64,000 nucleotides of DNA from Escherichia coli. Lineage in GTDB: Bacteria; Pseudomonadota; Gammaproteobacteria; Enterobacterales; Enterobacteriaceae. The first letter of the stretch is position 1; every line of letters begins with the position of its first letter. The position numbers were made by a program. The stretch lies in assembly GCF_024223415.1 (NCBI RefSeq), contig NZ_CP100500.1; one strand, 5' to 3'. Shown piece after piece: positions 2,457 through 8,400 of this stretch.

Positions 2457-5400
2457 ATCTCAATATCAGATCTTACATGCGCCGCTTTCGCAGCCATCGT
2501 CCTGGATTGACGGCACCAGATCGTCCTGCGCGTCTTCAGCACCGTCACGGGTGTTCTGATAATACAGCGTTTTGACCCCGAATTTGTAGGCGGTGAGCAG
2601 GTCTTTCAGCAATTGCTGCATCGGCACTTTTCCTGACGGGAAGCGTGACGGATCGTAGTTGGTGTTAGCAGAGATCGACTGATCGATAAATTTCTGCATG
2701 ATACCCACCAGTTGCAGGTAGCCATCGTTACCCGGCATTTCCCACAGCAGCTCATAGGCGTCGTGCAGATGCTCGTAGTCCGGCACTACCTGGCGCAGAA
2801 TACCGTCTTTCGACGCTTTGATGCTGACGTAACCGCGCGGCGGTTCAATACCGTTAGTGGCGTTAGAGATCTGTGAAGAAGTCTCGGACGGCATCAGGGC
2901 AGAAAGCGTGGAGTTACGCAGGCCGTGCGTTTTGATTGACTCACGCAGAGCTTCCCAGTCGTAATGCAGCGGCTCATTAGCGATGGTATCCAGATCTTTC
3001 TTATAGGTATCGATCGGCAGGATCCCTTTCGCGTAAGTGGTTTCGTTAAACCACGGGCACGCGCCTTGCTCTTTCGCCAGCTCATTAGACGCTTTCAGCA
3101 GGTAATACTGAATCGCTTCGAAGGTTTTATGCGTCAGGTTGTTGGCGCTGCCGTCGGAGTAGCGTTTACCATGCTTCGCCAGGTAGTAAGCGAAGTTGAT
3201 CACACCAATACCCAGCGTACGACGACCCATCGCTCCACGTTTGGCGGCCGGGATCGGGTAATCCTGATAATCCAGCAGCGCGTCAAGTGCACGAACCGCC
3301 AGAATTGCCAGCTCTTCCAGTTCATCCAGGCTATTAATTGCGCCCAGGTTGAAAGCAGACAGCGTACACAGCGCGATTTCACCGTTCTCGTCGTTGACAT
3401 CATTCAGCGGTTTGGTCGGCAGGGCGATTTCCAGGCACAGGTTAGACTGGCGCACTGGCGCGATGGCCGGATCAAACGGGCTATGGGTATTGCAGTGGTC
3501 AACGTTCTGAATATAGATACGACCGGTAGACGCACGTTCCTGCATCATCAGCGAGAACAGCTCAACGGCTTTCACACGCTGTTTGCGGATGCTGTCGTCT
3601 TGCTCATATTGGGTGTACAGACGTTCAAACTCTTCCTGATCGGCGAAGAACGCGTCGTACAGCCCCGGTACGTCGGATGGGCTGAAAAGTGTGATATCTT
3701 CACCTTTCAGCAGACGGGTATACATCAGTTTGTTGATCTGTACCCCGTAGTCCATATGGCGCACGCGGTTGCCTTCCACACCACGGTTGTTTTTCAACAC
3801 CAGCAGGCTTTCCACTTCCAGATGCCACATCGGGTAGAACAGCGTTGCCGCACCGCCGCGCACACCGCCCTGAGAGCAGGATTTCACCGCTGTCTGGAAA
3901 TGTTTGTAGAACGGAATACAACCGGTATGGAACGCTTCGCCACCGCGAATCGGGCTACCCAGCGCACGAATACGCCCGGCGTTGATGCCGATCCCGGCAC
4001 GCTGGGAAACATATTTCACAATCGCGCTGGAGGTGGCGTTGATGGAATCCAGGCTGTCGCCGCACTCGATCAGTACGCAGGAGCTGAACTGACGAGTCGG
4101 GGTACGCACGCCGGACATGATTGGCGTCGGCAGCGAAATTTTAAATGTGGAAACCGCGTCGTAAAAACGCTTCACGTATTGCAGGCGCGTTTCACGCGGG
4201 TAGTTCGAGAACAGGCACGCAGCAACCAGAATATAAAGGAACTGGGCGCTTTCGTAGATTTCGCCGGTCACGCGGTTCTGTACCAGATATTTGCCTTCCA
4301 GCTGCTTAACGGCAGCATAAGAGAAGGTCATATCACGGTCGTGATCGATAAACGTGTCCATCTGCTTGAACTCTTCTTCCGTGTAGTCTTCCAGCAGATG
4401 ATTATCGTATTTGCCCATCTCGACCATTTTCACCACATGGTCATACAGCGCAGGTGGCTCAAACTGGCCATAGGCTTTTTTACGCAGGTGGAAGATCGCC
4501 AGGCGCGCGGCGAGATACTGATAATCCGGCGCATCACGGGAGATCAGGTCTGCGGCAGCCTTGATAATAGTTTCGTGGATGTCAGAGGTCTTGATACCGT
4601 CATAAAACTGAATGTGGGAGCGCAGCTCGACCTGGGAAATCGAAACGTTATGCAGTCCTTCTGCCGCCCAATCCAGAACGCGATGGATTTTGTCGAGATT
4701 GATGCGCTCTGTGCTACCGTCGCGCTTTGTCACCAGCAGATTCTGATTCATGTATGTCGTACCTGTTTTTGGAATTCTTTCCGCAATAGTTTCATGCAGA
4801 CTACCTGTAGTACGGGAAGCTGCTTAGAACACTATATATAGGGGGTATGTTTGGGATTCACTGCAAGATAGTGTGAAAATGGCCCTCTTGCAAGTGCATA
4901 ACTTTGTGGATAACTCAGGAAGGAAAAAGTGGCTTTCGCGCACCTTAGGTCAGACAAGGTGTCCGGGAAAGTCAATGGGAAGAGAAAAATTTGTTAAAAA
5001 TAACTGTTCGGCGATTTCTTGAACGGCAGAATAGGTTGGATAAATTGATATAGATGGTTTATTAATCTTTTTGCTAATGATTGCAAAAATTGATCTAAGC
5101 ACGAGTCATCACATAATCTGATGTATCAGTTGTGGTCAATATATAAGCGAATGTAAGCGATTGTTGATGTCGAAATGGTTGTTTTCTATTCGGTTATTGT
5201 TAAATGCGAAGCCATTTTGTTAATTTACCTTATATTATAAGAAAATTATTCATTACTTTAATTTAGTTTAAATATAACTGGTATCCCTTAAGGTTATTAA
5301 CTTGAATTATGACGCACTGATACTATTCATCAAATAATAACAAAATAGCCATTGCATCGGGTTGGACAATTTACAAAAGAAAGATAACCCATATTGTATA

Positions 5401-8400
5401 ATGCGTTTAAATATGCCGTCTTATATAAAATGATGGTCAGATTAATATGCGGATTATCTTTCTACGCAAGGAGTATTTATCTCTACTCCCGTCAATGATT
5501 GCATCTCTTTTCTCTGCTAACGGTGTCGCGGCGGCCATTGATTTATGCCAGGGATATGATATCAAAGCGAGTTGTCACGCCAGCAGGCAAAGCCTTTCAG
5601 GCATTACGCAGGTCTGGAGTATCGCCGATGGGCAATGGCTGGTTTTTTCGGATATGACCAATAATGCCAGCGGTGGGGCCGTATTTTTGCAACAAGGAGC
5701 GGAATTTACATTATCACCAGAAAATGAAACTGGAATGACTCTGTTTGCCAATAACACCGTTTCAGGAGAATATAATAACGGCGGGGCAATATTTGCTAAA
5801 GAAAACTCAACGCTGAATCTTACGGATGTTATTTTTTCTGGTAACGTCGCAGGCGGCTATGGTGGCGCAATCTATTCTTCTGGTACTAACGATACCGGTG
5901 CCATCGATTTACGTGTCACTAACGCCGTGTTTCGCAATAACATCGCTAATGACGGCAAAGGTGGTGCAATTTATACCATCAATAATGATATCTATTTAAG
6001 TGATGATGTTTTTAACAATAACCAGGCATATACATCAACAAGTTACAGTGATGGCGATGGCGGCGCAATCGATGTCACAGATAATAATAGCGACAGCAAG
6101 CATCCTTCAGGTTATACGATAATAAATAACACTGCCTTTACAAATAACACTGCCGAAGGTTATGGCGGGGCGATATATACCAATAGCGCGACGGCTCCCT
6201 ATCTTATTGATATTTCTGTTGATGACAGCTACAGCCAGAACGGAGGCGTGTTAGTCGATGAGAACAATAGCGCAGCAGGCTATGGAGATGGTCCTTCCTC
6301 TGCGGCGGGTGGCTTTATGTATCTCGGCTTAAGTGAAGTTACCTTTGATATTGCCGACGGAAAAACGCTGGTTATTGGCAATACAGAGAATGACGGAGCT
6401 GTTGACTCTATTGCTGGTACCGGGTTAATCACCAAAACAGGTTCCGGCGATCTGGTACTTAATGCAGATAACAATGACTTTACTGGTGAGATGCAGATTG
6501 AAAACGGTGAAGTTATCCTGGGCCGCAGCAACTCCCTGATGAATGTCGGCGATACTCATTGCCAGGACGATCCGCAAGACTGCTACGGTCTGACGATAGG
6601 GAGTATTGATAAGTACCAGAATCAGGCAGAGCTAAATGTTGGCTCCACCCAACAAACTTTTGTGCACTCATTGACGGGCTTTCAGAATGGTACTTTAAAT
6701 ATCGATGCTGGTGGCAATGTTACTGTTAATGAAGGCAGTTTTGCTGGCACCATCGAAGGTGCTGGTCAGCTCACCATTGCGCAAAACGGCAGCTATGTGC
6801 TGGCGGGAGCGTCGTCGATGGCGCTAACCGGCGATATAGTCGTTGATGATGGTGCGGTGCTTTCGTTGGAAGGCGATGCGGCAGATCTTGCCGCTCTCCA
6901 GGACGATCCGCAGTCGATCGTGTTAAACGGCGGTGTGCTCGATCTCTCTGATTTCTCCACCTGGCAGAGCGGTACATCATACAACGATGGCCTTGAAGTC
7001 AGCGGTAGCAGCGGAACGGTTATCGGCAGTCAGGATGTGGTAGATCTTGCAGGCGGAAACGATATGCATATCGGCGGTGACGGGAAAGATGGCGTCTACG
7101 TGGTGATCGATGCGGGTGACGGGCAGGTCCGCCTGGCAAATGACAATCAATACCTCGGCACAACGCAAATCGCCTCCGGTACGCTGATGGTGAGCGACAA
7201 CTCGCAGCTTGGAGATACCCATTACAACCGCCAGGTTATCTTTACCGATAATCAATAAGAAAGCGTGATGGAGATTACTGCCAATGTCGATACTCGCTCT
7301 ACAACGACTGAGCATGGGCGTGATATTGAAATGCGCGCCGACGGTGAAGTGGCAGTTGATGCGGGGGTAGACACGCAGTGGGGCGCACTGATGGCTGACA
7401 GCAGCGGGCAACATCAGGATGAGGGTAGCACATTGACTAAAACGGGGGCGGGTACACTGGAGCTGACCGCCAGCGGTACAACGCAGTCAGCGGTGAGAGT
7501 AGAAGAGGGCACGCTGCAAGGTGATGTTGCGGATATCTTCCCTTATGCTTCGTCGCTATGGGTCGGTGACGGGGCAACGTTCGTTACTGGCGCGGATCAG
7601 GATATTCAGTCAATTGATGCTACTTCCAGCGGCACTATCGACATCAGCAATGGTACGGTTTTGCGCCTGACCGGGCAGGATACTTCCGTCGCCCTTAATG
7701 CCTCACTGTTTAACGGCGATGGGACGCTGGTGAATGCCACCGATGGTGTGACGTTGACAGGTGAGCTTAATACCAACCTTGAAACTGACAGCTTGACTTA
7801 TCTTTCCGACGTAACAGTTAATGGCAATCTGACCAATACGACCGGTGCGGTCAGCCTGCAAAATGGCGTCGCTGGCGATACGCTGACGGTAAACGGTGAT
7901 TACACCGGCGGCGGTACGTTACTGTTCGACAGCGAATTAAACGGCGATGACTCAGCAAGCGACCAGTTGGTGTTGAACGGTAATACTGCTGGCAATACCA
8001 CGGTTGTGATTAATCCCATTACAGGGATTGGTGAGCCGACATCTACAGGCATTAAAGTGGTTGATTTCGCAGCTGATCCCACGCAGTTTCAAAACAATGC
8101 GCAGTTCAGTCTGGCAGGCAGTGGCTACGTCAACATGGGAGCGTATGACTACACGCTGGTGGAAGATAACAACGACTGGTATCTGCGATCACAAGAAGTA
8201 ACGCCGCCATCGCCACCTGATCCAGACCCGACTCCCGATCCTGATCCCACGCCGGATCCTGATCCAACACCCGACCCGGAACCTACGCCTGCTTACCAGC
8301 CGGTGTTGAATGCCAAAGTTGGCGGTTATCTCAATAACCTGCAGGCGGCAAATCAGGCGTTTATGATGGAGCGACGCGATCACGCAGGTGGCGATGGTCA

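What the first reader, a model, noticed from the sequence alone, without database searches (positions are those of the whole stretch)
4752..5446. Strongly AT-rich ~700-bp divergent region between nrdA and yfaL
Between 5040 and 5446 the sequence is dominated by A/T tracts (e.g. ttaatctttttgctaatgattgcaaaaattgatc, ttatattataagaaaattattcattactttaatttagtttaaatataac). This is typical of curved, H-NS-bound DNA that silences adhesin genes such as yfaL. The nrdA-proximal part holds NrdR-box-like palindromes and a perfect DnaA box. Two very differently regulated promoters therefore share this spacer.
Basis: inference. Interest (0 to 1): 0.25.

Follow-up and report, generated by a model that had tools for sequence, protein, structure and literature searches.

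The report
AT-rich H-NS-bound nrdA–yfaL spacer
The 695-bp gap between the E. coli ribonucleotide reductase gene nrdA and the adhesin gene yfaL is a well-studied two-part control region: a conserved nrdA promoter next to a very AT-rich, H-NS-bound block that goes with yfaL. As a finding it is real but ordinary.

Summary
Window 4752-5446 is exactly the divergent spacer between nrdA (2466-4751, -) and yfaL (5447-9199, +) of E. coli. Positions 5040-5446 are 28.0% G+C, the lowest 407-bp stretch in the 64-kb window (51.8% overall).

The perfect DnaA box (4905-4913) and the NrdR boxes (4798-4813 and 4829-4844, plus the unbound "box 0" at 4861-4876) are present.

- The region is a catalogued "promoter island" bound by H-NS in all three ChIP studies compared in PMC3661553.
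- It is marked HNS in a genomic SELEX table.
- H-NS is reported to modulate nrdAB.

Three caveats apply:
- Predicted curvature is confined to about 5011-5160, and A-tracts are not phased.
- I found no data showing that yfaL is derepressed without H-NS.
- In this strain yfaL carries a private nonsense codon (7256-7258).

Comparative analysis adds that the spacer has two modules, meeting at about 5026. The nrdA-proximal 274 bp is conserved. The AT-rich block is absent where ubiG abuts nrdA, diverges rapidly between alleles, and still keeps its length and about 29% G+C.

A side observation: in this sample of Enterobacteriaceae and Erwiniaceae, the E. coli-type nrdA promoter, with its DnaA box upstream, occurs only where yfaL is present.

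Novelty: already known. Interest: low.

The parts
2466..4751 (-). nrdA, class Ia ribonucleotide reductase alpha subunit (761 aa)
   Evidence: ORF; RefSeq annotation of matching K-12 and EC0880B loci.
4752..5025 (-). nrdA-proximal module: 5' UTR, core promoter and upstream element. Conserved across E. coli alleles and recognisably across Enterobacterales.
   Evidence: 96-100% identity among E. coli alleles, falling sharply beyond about 5026. Invariant columns in inter-genus alignments A1 and A4.
4798..4813 (-). NrdR box 2 (GTACTACAGGTAGTCT, central AG), 15 bp from box 1
   Evidence: Sequence, identical to the nrdAB_1,2 probe. The box 1+2 probe binds NrdR with KD of about 100 nM (PMC12176259).
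4829..4844 (-). NrdR box 1 (CCCCTATATATAGTGT)
   Evidence: Pattern match. Nearly invariant in 80 Enterobacterales loci. Required for NrdR binding.
4861..4876 (-). Former NrdR 'box 0', overlapping the -10; not bound by NrdR in vitro
   Evidence: Sequence. KD above 6000 nM for the box 0+1 probe (PMC12176259).
4865..4870 (-). nrdA -10 hexamer TATCTT. The transcription start is about 4858-4861, placed from memory of Tuggle & Fuchs 1986 (110-nt leader).
   Evidence: CACTATCTTG is invariant in 12 type-U promoters (alignment A4). Box 0 is described as lying in the -10 region.
4888..4893 (-). nrdA -35 hexamer TTGCAA, 17-bp spacer to the -10
   Evidence: CTTGCA is invariant in alignment A4; sequence.
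4893..4901 (-). Second, imperfect DnaA box TTATGCACT, abutting the -35
   Evidence: Sequence. Literature reports DnaA boxes in the nrd promoter. P1 annotation notes 'two predicted DnaA boxes' in the homologous E. coli segment.
4905..4913 (-). Perfect DnaA box TTATCCACA
   Evidence: invariant in alignment A4.
4879..5022 (+). ypaB, an annotated 47-aa ORF antisense to the nrdA promoter; probably not a real gene
   Evidence: Annotated in RefSeq. No Pfam match. Its ATG is CTG in the U14A-type allele, and it is not annotated in the four sampled genomes of the ~91%-identity class (H16-H19). It lies on the DnaA boxes and the -35.
4983..5025 (.). Conserved upstream A/T element (AGAAAAATTTGTTAAAAATAAC ... 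CGTTCAAGAAATC). Candidate for the published cis-acting AT-rich / Fis region of nrd.
   Evidence: Conserved in both promoter types (alignments A1 and A4). The functional assignment is inferred from paper titles cited and from memory.
5026..5446 (.). yfaL-linked AT-rich block (about 28% G+C): H-NS-bound 'promoter island'
   Evidence: Composition. Absent where ubiG abuts nrdA. Unalignable between alleles, yet same length and 28.8-29.0% G+C. K-12 H-NS ChIP summary and SELEX. 8 promoter-like sites in 4600-5600, against 3.5 +/- 2.3 in shuffles.
5037..5046 (+). TGGATAAATT, one mismatch from the H-NS high-affinity motif TCGATAAATT; possible nucleation site
   Evidence: Not significant on its own: 7 such sites in the window against 4.4 +/- 2.1 expected.
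5011..5160 (.). Segment of strongest predicted intrinsic curvature in the whole window
   Evidence: Wedge-model end-to-end/contour ratio of 0.745, the minimum of 6,385 windows. Only 0.2% of composition-matched shuffles are as curved. Model parameters were recalled from memory. The implementation was checked on phased and unphased A-tract controls.
5090..5117 (+). Promoter-like site TTGATC-16-CATAAT, directed towards yfaL
   Evidence: Consensus scan. The same hexamers are listed on the yfaL side in PMC3946193.
5397..5402 (+). Perfect TATAAT 45 nt upstream of the yfaL ATG; candidate proximal yfaL -10 (no good -35)
   Evidence: Sequence. Conserved in K-12 (primer sequence). No experimentally mapped yfaL transcription start was found (one search lists none).
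5431..5492 (.). Position of two GadX ChIP-exo peaks reported for K-12 (2342146-2342207, old coordinates), straddling the yfaL start codon
   Evidence: PMC4918353 Supplementary Table 3. Mapped using the yfaL start at 2344169 in NC_000913.3 and a +1978 coordinate offset recalled from memory.
5447..9199 (+). yfaL/ehaC, AIDA-I-type autotransporter adhesin. Here it is a pseudogene, with an in-frame TAA at 7256-7258 (Q604*).
   Evidence: ORFs. Pfam PATR, Chlam_PMP, AC_1, Pertactin and Autotransporter domains. CAA in K-12 and in the otherwise identical haplotype of strain 7/2. No complete genome carries the T.

Best explanation
The spacer is a composite of two regulatory modules that meet at about position 5026.

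Module 1 (4752-5025) is the classical nrdAB control region. It holds a sigma-70 promoter (-35 TTGCAA, -10 TATCTT) and a leader of about 110 nt carrying the NrdR operator (boxes 1 and 2, 15 bp apart). Two DnaA boxes lie immediately upstream of the -35. A conserved A/T-rich upstream element follows. DnaA, NrdR, Fis and IciA tune nrdAB expression to replication.

Module 2 (5026-5446) is a 28% G+C block belonging to yfaL. It offers many weak promoter-like sites but is coated by H-NS. H-NS probably nucleates at AT-rich, TpA-rich sites and spreads over the block and into the 45% G+C 5' part of yfaL. This keeps the adhesin gene cryptic under laboratory conditions. Because the filament ends next to the nrdA upstream element, H-NS also modestly represses nrdAB.

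Shown:
- H-NS occupancy, NrdR binding and DnaA regulation (published for K-12).

Inferred:
- Nucleation and spreading of H-NS.
- That H-NS is what silences yfaL.
- That GadX or another AT-binding factor relieves the silencing.
For: - Layout and gene identity.
- Composition outlier.
- DnaA and NrdR motifs. NrdR boxes 1+2 bind with KD of about 100 nM, while box 0+1 does not bind (PMC12176259).
- DnaA/Fis/IciA regulation and H-NS/NrdR repression of class Ia RNR: PMC8203912 and PMC4009431.
- H-NS occupancy: promoter island 2342143_534 yfaL/ypaB, scored 'A' (bound in all studies), in PMC3661553. 'HNS' flag for the yfaL<>nrdA spacer in PMC3946193.
- Promoter-like sites: 8 against 3.5 +/- 2.3.
- yfaL phenotype seen only with an inserted constitutive promoter (PMC3764049).
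- GadX ChIP-exo peaks at the yfaL start.
- Two-module structure. In 59 other Enterobacterales loci measured, ubiG lies directly upstream of nrdA, with a median spacer of 432 bp at 42% G+C and no AT-rich block. Inter-genus homology stops at about 5025. Identity between E. coli/E. albertii alleles falls from 96-100% to 35-65% at the same point.
- Composition rather than sequence is kept. Three mutually unalignable versions (E. coli L004, E. albertii, a Pseudocitrobacter MAG) have spacers of 697-702 bp with 28.8-29.0% G+C on the yfaL side.
- The block is single-copy and chromosomal in 5425 of 5426 complete E. coli genomes.
Against: - No direct evidence was found that yfaL transcription rises in an hns mutant. 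Three supplement look-ups returned nothing.
- All binding data are for K-12, which is 95-98% identical to the window across the AT-rich block. None are for this strain.
- The near-consensus H-NS motif at 5037-5046 is not statistically unusual.
- A-tracts are not enriched beyond composition, and AA/TT helical phasing is not significant. Curvature therefore rests on one wedge model whose parameters I recalled from memory.
- The GadX knockout did not change yfaL expression in the cited study.
- yfaL is a pseudogene in this strain. Any silencing here has no protein-level consequence.
- More distant yfaL-bearing loci (RIT691, Rahnella, L092) have 39-44% G+C on the yfaL side. Extreme AT-richness is therefore not a universal companion of yfaL.
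Confidence: 0.85

Rival explanations
1. The AT-rich block is primarily an upstream activating or architectural element of nrdAB. [quoted passage not shown] It would not be a yfaL silencer.
For: [quoted passage not shown] 1994, cited).
- The strongest predicted curvature in the window (5011-5160) lies 150-300 bp upstream of the nrdA start site.
- H-NS is reported to modulate nrdAB.
Against: - Genera in which ubiG abuts nrdA lack the block entirely, yet keep an essential nrdAB operon with a 320-707-bp spacer.
- The element shared by all genera is the short A/T stretch at 4983-5025, inside module 1.
- The block is unalignable between Escherichia alleles, while module 1 is 96-100% conserved.
Confidence: 0.1
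2. The AT-richness has no function. It would be the neutral outcome of AT-biased mutation and relaxed selection in a long non-coding stretch next to a frequently inactivated, mosaic adhesin gene. H-NS binding would be a passive consequence.
For: - Very fast divergence of the block: 35-65% identity between alleles, and 86% in 995 E. coli genomes, against 97% or more for module 1.
- No conserved ORF, RNA family, terminator or strong repeat in it.
- yfaL is mosaic (PMC12175518) and is truncated here. It also appears as many short fragments in Shigella.
Against: - Length (697-702 bp) and composition (28.8-29.0% G+C) are held constant across three unalignable versions.
- The block is retained in 5425 of 5426 genomes.
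- Other ORF-free gaps in the window have a median of 42% G+C.
- H-NS occupancy is reproducible across studies.
Confidence: 0.1
3. The spacer hides an unannotated functional gene, either the small protein YpaB or a small RNA. That gene, rather than nucleoid-protein binding, would explain the unusual sequence.
For: - ypaB (4879-5022) is annotated in RefSeq.
- P1-type phages carry a related ORF (upfO) over the homologous segment.
Against: - ypaB lies in module 1, not in the AT-rich block.
- It overlaps the DnaA boxes and the -35, which already explain its conservation.
- Its start codon is CTG in the U14A-type allele, and it is not annotated in the four sampled genomes of that allele class (H16-H19).
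- No Pfam family matches, and I see no obvious Shine-Dalgarno sequence upstream of its ATG (my reading of the sequence printed).
- No Rfam match at E <= 1 in 4000-6500.
- ORFs in 5026-5446 are 34 aa or shorter and sit in sequence that is not conserved.
Confidence: 0.03

Closest known systems
E. coli K-12 'promoter island' yfaL/ypaB (Panyukov & Ozoline 2013, PMC3661553), an H-NS-bound xenogeneic-silencing region
   Same: - Same locus. K-12 is 97.4% identical over 4600-5600.
- Same length and position. The island maps to about window 4962-5495.
- AT-rich, with excess promoter-like sites, and next to a gene scored as foreign.
- H-NS-bound in all the ChIP datasets compared.
   Different: - This strain's allele differs at 2-10% of positions per 50-bp stretch across the block, and its yfaL carries a private nonsense codon.
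- Occupancy was not measured in this strain.
The E. coli nrdAB regulatory region (Tuggle & Fuchs; Augustin, Jacobson, Sun & Fuchs; Olliver et al.; Torrents et al.; Rozman Grinberg et al. 2025)
   Same: The DnaA boxes, -35/-10 and NrdR boxes 0, 1 and 2 are identical or nearly identical to K-12. Window 4600-4999 is 99.5-100% identical to K-12.
   Different: Nothing material.
Other H-NS-silenced adhesin and porin control regions in divergent spacers, for example ompC-micF/rcsD and fimB/fimE/fimA
   Same: - Long AT-rich spacers flagged HNS or listed as promoter islands.
- The rcsD-ompC spacer is the second most AT-rich stretch of this window.
   Different: Here the partner gene across the spacer is an essential housekeeping operon with its own dedicated regulators.

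Membership tests
H-NS-bound AT-rich silencing region / promoter island | A+T content far above the genome average over at least 300 bp | tested here: met
   28.0% G+C over 407 bp against 51.8% for the window; the lowest such stretch in the window.
H-NS-bound AT-rich silencing region / promoter island | H-NS occupancy in vivo | not testable with these tools
   Published for K-12: bound in all ChIP studies compared (PMC3661553 Table 1) and flagged HNS in the SELEX table. Not measured in this strain.
H-NS-bound AT-rich silencing region / promoter island | Excess of promoter-like sites | tested here: met
   8 sites in 4600-5600 against 3.5 +/- 2.3 in dinucleotide shuffles. This is a modest excess of about 2 sd.
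H-NS-bound AT-rich silencing region / promoter island | Association with a non-core or horizontally mobile gene | tested here: met
   yfaL and the block are absent from the ubiG-nrdA junction in 59 other Enterobacterales loci measured, and occur sporadically elsewhere. Within E. coli, however, the block is core: 5425 of 5426 genomes.
H-NS-bound AT-rich silencing region / promoter island | Derepression of the adjacent gene when hns is deleted | not tested
   No dataset with yfaL values could be read.
Intrinsically curved DNA | Helically phased A-tracts (10-11-bp AA/TT periodicity) | tested here: not met
   Power at 10-11 bp is no higher than in shuffles (32-89% of shuffles reach the observed power). 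A-tract count equals the composition expectation.
Intrinsically curved DNA | Predicted curvature above background in a dinucleotide wedge model | tested here: inconclusive
   5011-5160 is the most curved 150-bp segment of the window (ratio 0.745; 0.2% of shuffles are as curved). 5240-5446 is predicted straight. Parameters were recalled from memory.
nrdAB regulatory region | DnaA boxes adjacent to the -35 | tested here: met
   TTATCCACA at 4905-4913 and TTATGCACT at 4893-4901.
nrdAB regulatory region | Two 16-bp NrdR boxes separated by 15-16 bp | tested here: met
   Boxes at 4829-4844 and 4798-4813 with a 15-bp linker, identical to the probe that binds NrdR.
nrdAB regulatory region | Fis and IciA (ArgP) binding sites upstream | not tested
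   Reported in the literature. No matrices were available here.
ypaB as a protein-coding gene | Intact ORF and start codon conserved across alleles, or family membership | tested here: not met
   ATG is CTG in the U14A-type allele. The ORF is not annotated in the four sampled genomes of the ~91%-identity class (H16-H19). No Pfam hit.

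The most novel reading that the evidence does not exclude
The nrdA promoter comes in two architectures in Enterobacterales.

E. coli's textbook version ('type U') has a DnaA box about 70 bp upstream of NrdR box 1. It is shared with Yersinia, Serratia, Rahnella, Hafnia, Dickeya and Brenneria.

The other version ('type D') has an inverted pair of DnaA boxes downstream of NrdR box 1. Every other sampled Enterobacteriaceae and Erwiniaceae locus whose DnaA-box arrangement could be read and that lacks yfaL has type D; three such loci (L029, L055, L058) could not be classed or placed.

Within those two families, type U occurs only where yfaL sits next to nrdA: in Escherichia, a Pseudocitrobacter MAG, and an unnamed relative of Enterobacter/Pluralibacter. 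The exception is RIT691, which has yfaL with type D.

The reading is that yfaL, its AT-rich silencer and the type-U nrdA promoter travel together as one cassette. The cassette would be exchanged by homologous recombination, with one breakpoint at the nrdA start codon. On this view the regulation of an essential replication-linked operon in E. coli was imported, or retained, together with a silenced adhesin gene.
Probability: 0.35. Interest if true: 0.45.

Novelty: already known. Interest (0 to 1): 0.15.

Why it matters
As stated, the finding adds nothing new. The locus is one of the best-characterised E. coli promoters, sitting next to a catalogued H-NS-bound promoter island. It is a useful positive control, because a reader working from sequence alone inferred H-NS binding and the DnaA/NrdR sites correctly.

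The comparative results give it some extra value:
- They place the boundary between 'housekeeping' and 'silenced' DNA to within about 30 bp.
- They show that composition and length of the silenced block are conserved while its sequence is not. That fits recognition of AT-richness rather than of a specific sequence.
- They raise a testable possibility: that the promoter of an essential replication-linked operon has been swapped between lineages together with a neighbouring adhesin gene.

Tried and rejected
- **Rfam scan of 4000-6500 at E <= 1:** no match.
- **Terminator scan:** none.
- **Direct and inverted repeats in the spacer:** only short, weak two-copy matches.
- **Small ORFs in the AT-rich block:** 34 aa or shorter, in sequence that is not conserved between alleles.
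- **H-NS high-affinity motif and relaxed DnaA-box counts:** not enriched over shuffles, so not used as evidence.
- **A-tract enrichment and helical phasing:** not significant. I therefore rejected 'A-tract curved DNA' as a description of the whole block.
- **Quantitative H-NS ChIP or hns-mutant expression values for yfaL:**
  - The supplements of PMC3064808 and PMC3686432 are not held as text.
  - The supplements of PMC4288151 do not mention yfaL.
  - The primary nrd papers (Cendra 2013; Sun 1994; Augustin 1994) are not held.
- **Protein search with the YfaL passenger domain, to find more yfaL-bearing genera:** swamped by E. coli and Shigella fragments. Only one useful distant hit, P0114, emerged.
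- **Donor search for the Escherichia-type promoter:** no sampled type-U promoter is more than 63% identical to the Enterobacteriaceae ones, so the direction and age of any transfer remain open.
- **Similarity to P1/P7 plasmids upstream of hot:** considered as a lead, but it is already annotated in the P1 genome record.

Full report
**1. What the window is**

The window is E. coli chromosome. A 1-kb query spanning the finding matches 5425 of 5426 complete E. coli genomes. It is 100% identical to strain GPEC1446 apart from an IS1 insertion there, 99.9% to EC0880B and 97.4% to K-12.

ORFs and RefSeq annotation of the matching loci give this order:

| Gene | Coordinates | Strand |
|---|---|---|
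| inaA | 144-794 | + |
| yfaE | 848-1102 | - |
| nrdB | about 1102-2232 | - |
| nrdA | 2466-4751 | - |
| ypaB (annotated 47-aa ORF) | 4879-5022 | + |
| yfaL/ehaC | 5447-9199 | + |
| ubiG | 9340-10110 (ORF incl. N-terminal extension; annotated gene 723 bp) | - |
| gyrA | 10209-12836 | + |

Pfam confirms that yfaL encodes an autotransporter, with PATR, Chlam_PMP, AC_1, Pertactin and Autotransporter beta-domain matches. The finding's coordinates, 4752-5446, are exactly the 695-bp divergent spacer.

**2.

G+C is 34.1% for the spacer, 42.7% for 4752-5039 and 28.0% for 5040-5446. The window average is 51.8%. The stretch 5041-5447 is the lowest-GC 407-bp stretch anywhere in the window; the runner-up, at 31.4%, is the rcsD-ompC spacer.

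TpA steps are nearly three times as dense as in the window as a whole. Runs of A or T are not more frequent than the base composition predicts. 'AT-rich' is therefore accurate, and 'A/T tracts' less so.

The motifs are present:
- The perfect DnaA box TTATCCACA is at 4905-4913 on the nrdA strand. A second, imperfect box (TTATGCACT, 4893-4901) abuts the -35.
- One NrdR box is at 4829-4844.
- Two further box-like palindromes lie at 4798-4813 and 4861-4876.

**3. What is known about the nrdA-proximal part**

Published binding work (PMC12176259) used probes identical to this sequence. NrdR binds box 1 (4829-4844) plus a newly recognised box 2 (4798-4813, 15-bp linker) with a KD of about 100 nM. The older pair, box 0 + box 1, is essentially unbound (KD above 6000 nM). 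Box 0 overlaps the -10.

Reviews describe further regulation of nrdAB:
- DnaA acts through the boxes, either activating or repressing depending on its nucleotide state and level.
- Fis and IciA activate.
- NrdR and H-NS repress.

In my alignment of twelve promoters of this architecture, four elements are invariant: the DnaA box, CTTGCA (-35 TTGCAA, 4888-4893), CACTATCTTG (-10 TATCTT, 4865-4870) and NrdR box 1. This supports the promoter assignment. The 110-nt leader is from memory of Tuggle & Fuchs 1986.

**4. What is known about the AT-rich part**

- PMC3661553 lists 78 'promoter islands' in K-12. One is '2342143_534 yfaL(-)/ypaB(-)'. It is scored as overlapping a genomic island or foreign genes, and as bound by H-NS in all the ChIP studies compared: Grainger, Kahramanoglou and Oshima.
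- I mapped that island using the yfaL start at 2344169 in NC_000913.3 and a +1978 offset between genome versions, recalled from memory. It then covers about window 4962-5495, which is the whole AT-rich block. An error of tens of bp would not change this.
- PMC3946193 (genomic SELEX with RpoD holoenzyme) marks the yfaL<>nrdA spacer 'HNS'. It lists TTGATC-16-CATAAT on the yfaL side. That is the site my consensus scan found at 5090-5117, plus strand.
- The scan found 8 promoter-like sites in 4600-5600, against 3.5 +/- 2.3 in shuffles.
- GadX ChIP-exo peaks are reported at 2342146-2342207, 'upstream of yfaL'. The study lists no known transcription start for yfaL and no expression change on knockout. 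These peaks map to about 5431-5492.
- Functional studies of YfaL insert a constitutive promoter in front of the gene to obtain a biofilm phenotype. This is consistent with the native gene being cryptic.
- I could not read any dataset giving yfaL expression in an hns mutant.

**5. Curvature**

I implemented a dinucleotide wedge model, with Bolshoy-Trifonov-type parameters recalled from memory. It behaved correctly on controls: phased A-tracts gave a ratio of 0.27 and unphased ones 0.98.

The model places the most curved 150-bp segment of the entire window at 5011-5160 (ratio 0.745). Only 0.2% of composition-matched shuffles are as curved.

The most AT-rich part, 5240-5446, is predicted straight. 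AA/TT periodicity at 10-11 bp is not significant anywhere in the spacer. 'Curved' is therefore supported for the junction region only, and only by this model.

**6. Two modules: the comparative evidence**

I fetched 80 Enterobacterales nrdA loci.

- In most of them (Citrobacter, Salmonella, Klebsiella, Enterobacter, Yersinia, Serratia, Pantoea and others; 59 measured), ubiG lies directly upstream of nrdA in the same orientation. The median spacer is 432 bp at 42% G+C.
- yfaL sits between ubiG and nrdA only in E. coli, E. albertii, a Pseudocitrobacter MAG (L013), Enterobacteriaceae strain RIT691 (L038) and Rahnella bonaserana (L075). One further metagenomic organism (L091/L092) shows the same arrangement.
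- Inter-genus homology upstream of nrdA ends at about window 5025.
- Within Escherichia, identity between the window and the L004/E. albertii alleles is 96-100% (E. albertii 82-98%) up to about 5000. It drops to 35-65% from about 5030 to 5450, then recovers partly inside yfaL.
- These unalignable versions still have spacers of 697-702 bp with 28.8-29.0% G+C on the yfaL side.
- Within E. coli the block is single-copy and present in 5425 of 5426 genomes. There are three identity classes: 99% or more (1585 genomes), 95-99% (2783, including K-12) and about 86% (995).
- yfaL itself is reported to evolve in a mosaic fashion.

I conclude that 4752-5025 is the nrdA module and 5026-5446 belongs with yfaL. 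Selection, or a strong bias, maintains the composition and length of the block rather than its sequence. This is what a nucleoid-protein target that recognises AT-richness would predict.

**7. Mechanism and its rivals**

The best-supported account is as follows.
1. H-NS coats the yfaL-linked block and the 45% G+C 5' part of yfaL, keeping yfaL cryptic.
2. The adjacent nrdA module runs on DnaA, NrdR, Fis and IciA.
3. The proximity of the H-NS-bound block explains the reported modest H-NS effect on nrdAB.

Occupancy, NrdR binding and DnaA regulation are published. Nucleation, spreading and causality for yfaL silencing are inferred.

Rivals:
- **The block serves nrdAB architecture.** This is contradicted by its absence in yfaL-less genera and its lack of conservation. 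The short conserved A/T element at 4983-5025 is the better candidate for the published upstream AT-rich requirement.
- **The block is neutral drift.** Rapid divergence supports this. Conserved length and composition, and universal retention, argue against it.
- **The block hides a gene.** There is no Rfam hit. ypaB loses its start codon in one allele class and lies on the promoter motifs, not in the block.

**8. Side observations**

- **yfaL is a pseudogene here.** CAA has become TAA at 7256 (Q604*). Strain 7/2, identical to the window across the 121-bp segment aligned around the codon, has CAA, and no complete genome has the T.
- **IS1 insertion.** Strain GPEC1446 carries an IS1 in the block at 5269-5276, with an 8-bp duplication.
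- **P1/P7 copy.** P1 and P7-type phage-plasmids carry a 115-130-bp copy of the nrdA DnaA-box/-35 segment upstream of hot. This is already annotated in the P1 record.
- **13-bp deletion.** The U14A allele lacks 13 bp of the nrdA leader, 4771-4783.
- **Two nrdA promoter architectures.** This is the most interesting of the side observations.
  - *Type U* has the DnaA box about 69-79 bp upstream of NrdR box 1. It is found in Escherichia, L013 and L092. It is also found in Yersiniaceae, Pectobacteriaceae, Hafniaceae and Budviciaceae.
  - *Type D* has no upstream box. Instead it has an inverted pair, TTATCCACA...TGTGGATAA, downstream of box 1. It is found in the other sampled Enterobacteriaceae and Erwiniaceae whose DnaA-box arrangement could be read; L029 and L058 showed no DnaA box.
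  - L013's nrdA coding sequence is 94.9% identical to P. faecalis from its first 200 nt onward (93% there). Directly upstream of the ATG, however, L013 has the Escherichia-type promoter, the 29% G+C block and yfaL. P. faecalis has type D and ubiG.
  - L092's nrdA is closest, at 90%, to type-D organisms, yet L092 has type U with yfaL.
  - RIT691 has yfaL with type D.
  - No close donor was found; identity to any sampled type-U promoter is 63% or less.
  - This suggests, but does not prove, that yfaL, its AT-rich block and the type-U promoter can be exchanged as a unit. A chimeric MAG contig and alternative loss or conversion scenarios remain possible. I could not establish whether the dimorphism has been described before.

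**9. Verdict**

Novelty: already known. Interest is low, at 0.15. The cassette reading is the most novel possibility not excluded by the evidence, with a probability of about 0.35.

Noticed in passing
window 7256-7258: yfaL is interrupted by an in-frame TAA (CAA to TAA, Q604*). Strain 7/2, identical to the window across the 121-bp segment aligned around the codon, has CAA, and none of 5426 complete E. coli genomes matches the 61-bp context exactly. The change is therefore either a strain-private nonsense mutation or a sequencing error.
   Followed up: yes
window 4752-5025; loci L004-L083, L092: The nrdA promoter is dimorphic in Enterobacterales. Type U has a DnaA box upstream of NrdR box 1. 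It occurs in Escherichia, Yersinia, Serratia, Rahnella, Hafnia, Dickeya and Brenneria. Type D has an inverted DnaA-box pair downstream of box 1. It occurs in Citrobacter, Salmonella, Klebsiella, Enterobacter, Pantoea and others. Among the clearly Enterobacteriaceae/Erwiniaceae loci sampled, type U occurs only together with yfaL. The Pseudocitrobacter MAG L013 switches from P. faecalis-like nrdA (94.9% identity) to an Escherichia-like upstream region exactly at the start codon.
   Followed up: partly
window 4875-4989; L003 3001-3115; L084 601-715: P1- and P7-type phage-plasmids carry a 115-130-bp copy (78-95% identical) of the nrdA DnaA-box/-35 segment upstream of hot, the theta-subunit homologue. 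It diverges at the -10. The P1 GenBank record already annotates the similarity. 235 places on plasmids in the E. coli genome collection match.
   Followed up: partly
window 4879-5022 (+): The annotated small ORF ypaB lies antisense over the nrdA DnaA boxes and -35. Its ATG is CTG in the U14A-type allele, and it has no Pfam family. It is probably an annotation artefact, kept intact by promoter conservation.
   Followed up: partly
window 5269-5276; L085 978-1745: Strain GPEC1446, otherwise 100% identical over 4600-5600, has a 768-bp IS1 inserted in the AT-rich block, with an 8-bp target duplication TAAATATA. It lies about 170 bp upstream of an intact yfaL.
   Followed up: yes
window 4771-4783: The allele sampled from strain U14A, one of 995 genomes in the ~86%-identity class for the AT-rich block, lacks 13 bp (GGAATTCTTTCCG) of the nrdA 5' leader, between NrdR box 2 and the start codon.
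   Followed up: no
window 36355-36761: The second most AT-rich stretch of the window (31.4% G+C) is the rcsD-ompC spacer, where micF lies in K-12. It is another spacer flagged HNS in the SELEX table.
   Followed up: partly
window 18262-18270 and 46840-46848: Two further perfect DnaA boxes (TTATCCACA, minus strand) occur elsewhere in the window. That makes three perfect copies in 64 kb, against about 0.5 expected from length alone.
   Followed up: no
window 2233-2465 versus K-12 (L001 2134-2366): The nrdB-nrdA intergenic gap is 233 bp in K-12 and in this window but only 88 bp in EC0880B. The region upstream of inaA also differs in length between the K-12 and EC0880B loci. These are probably variable repeat or REP content.
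   Followed up: no
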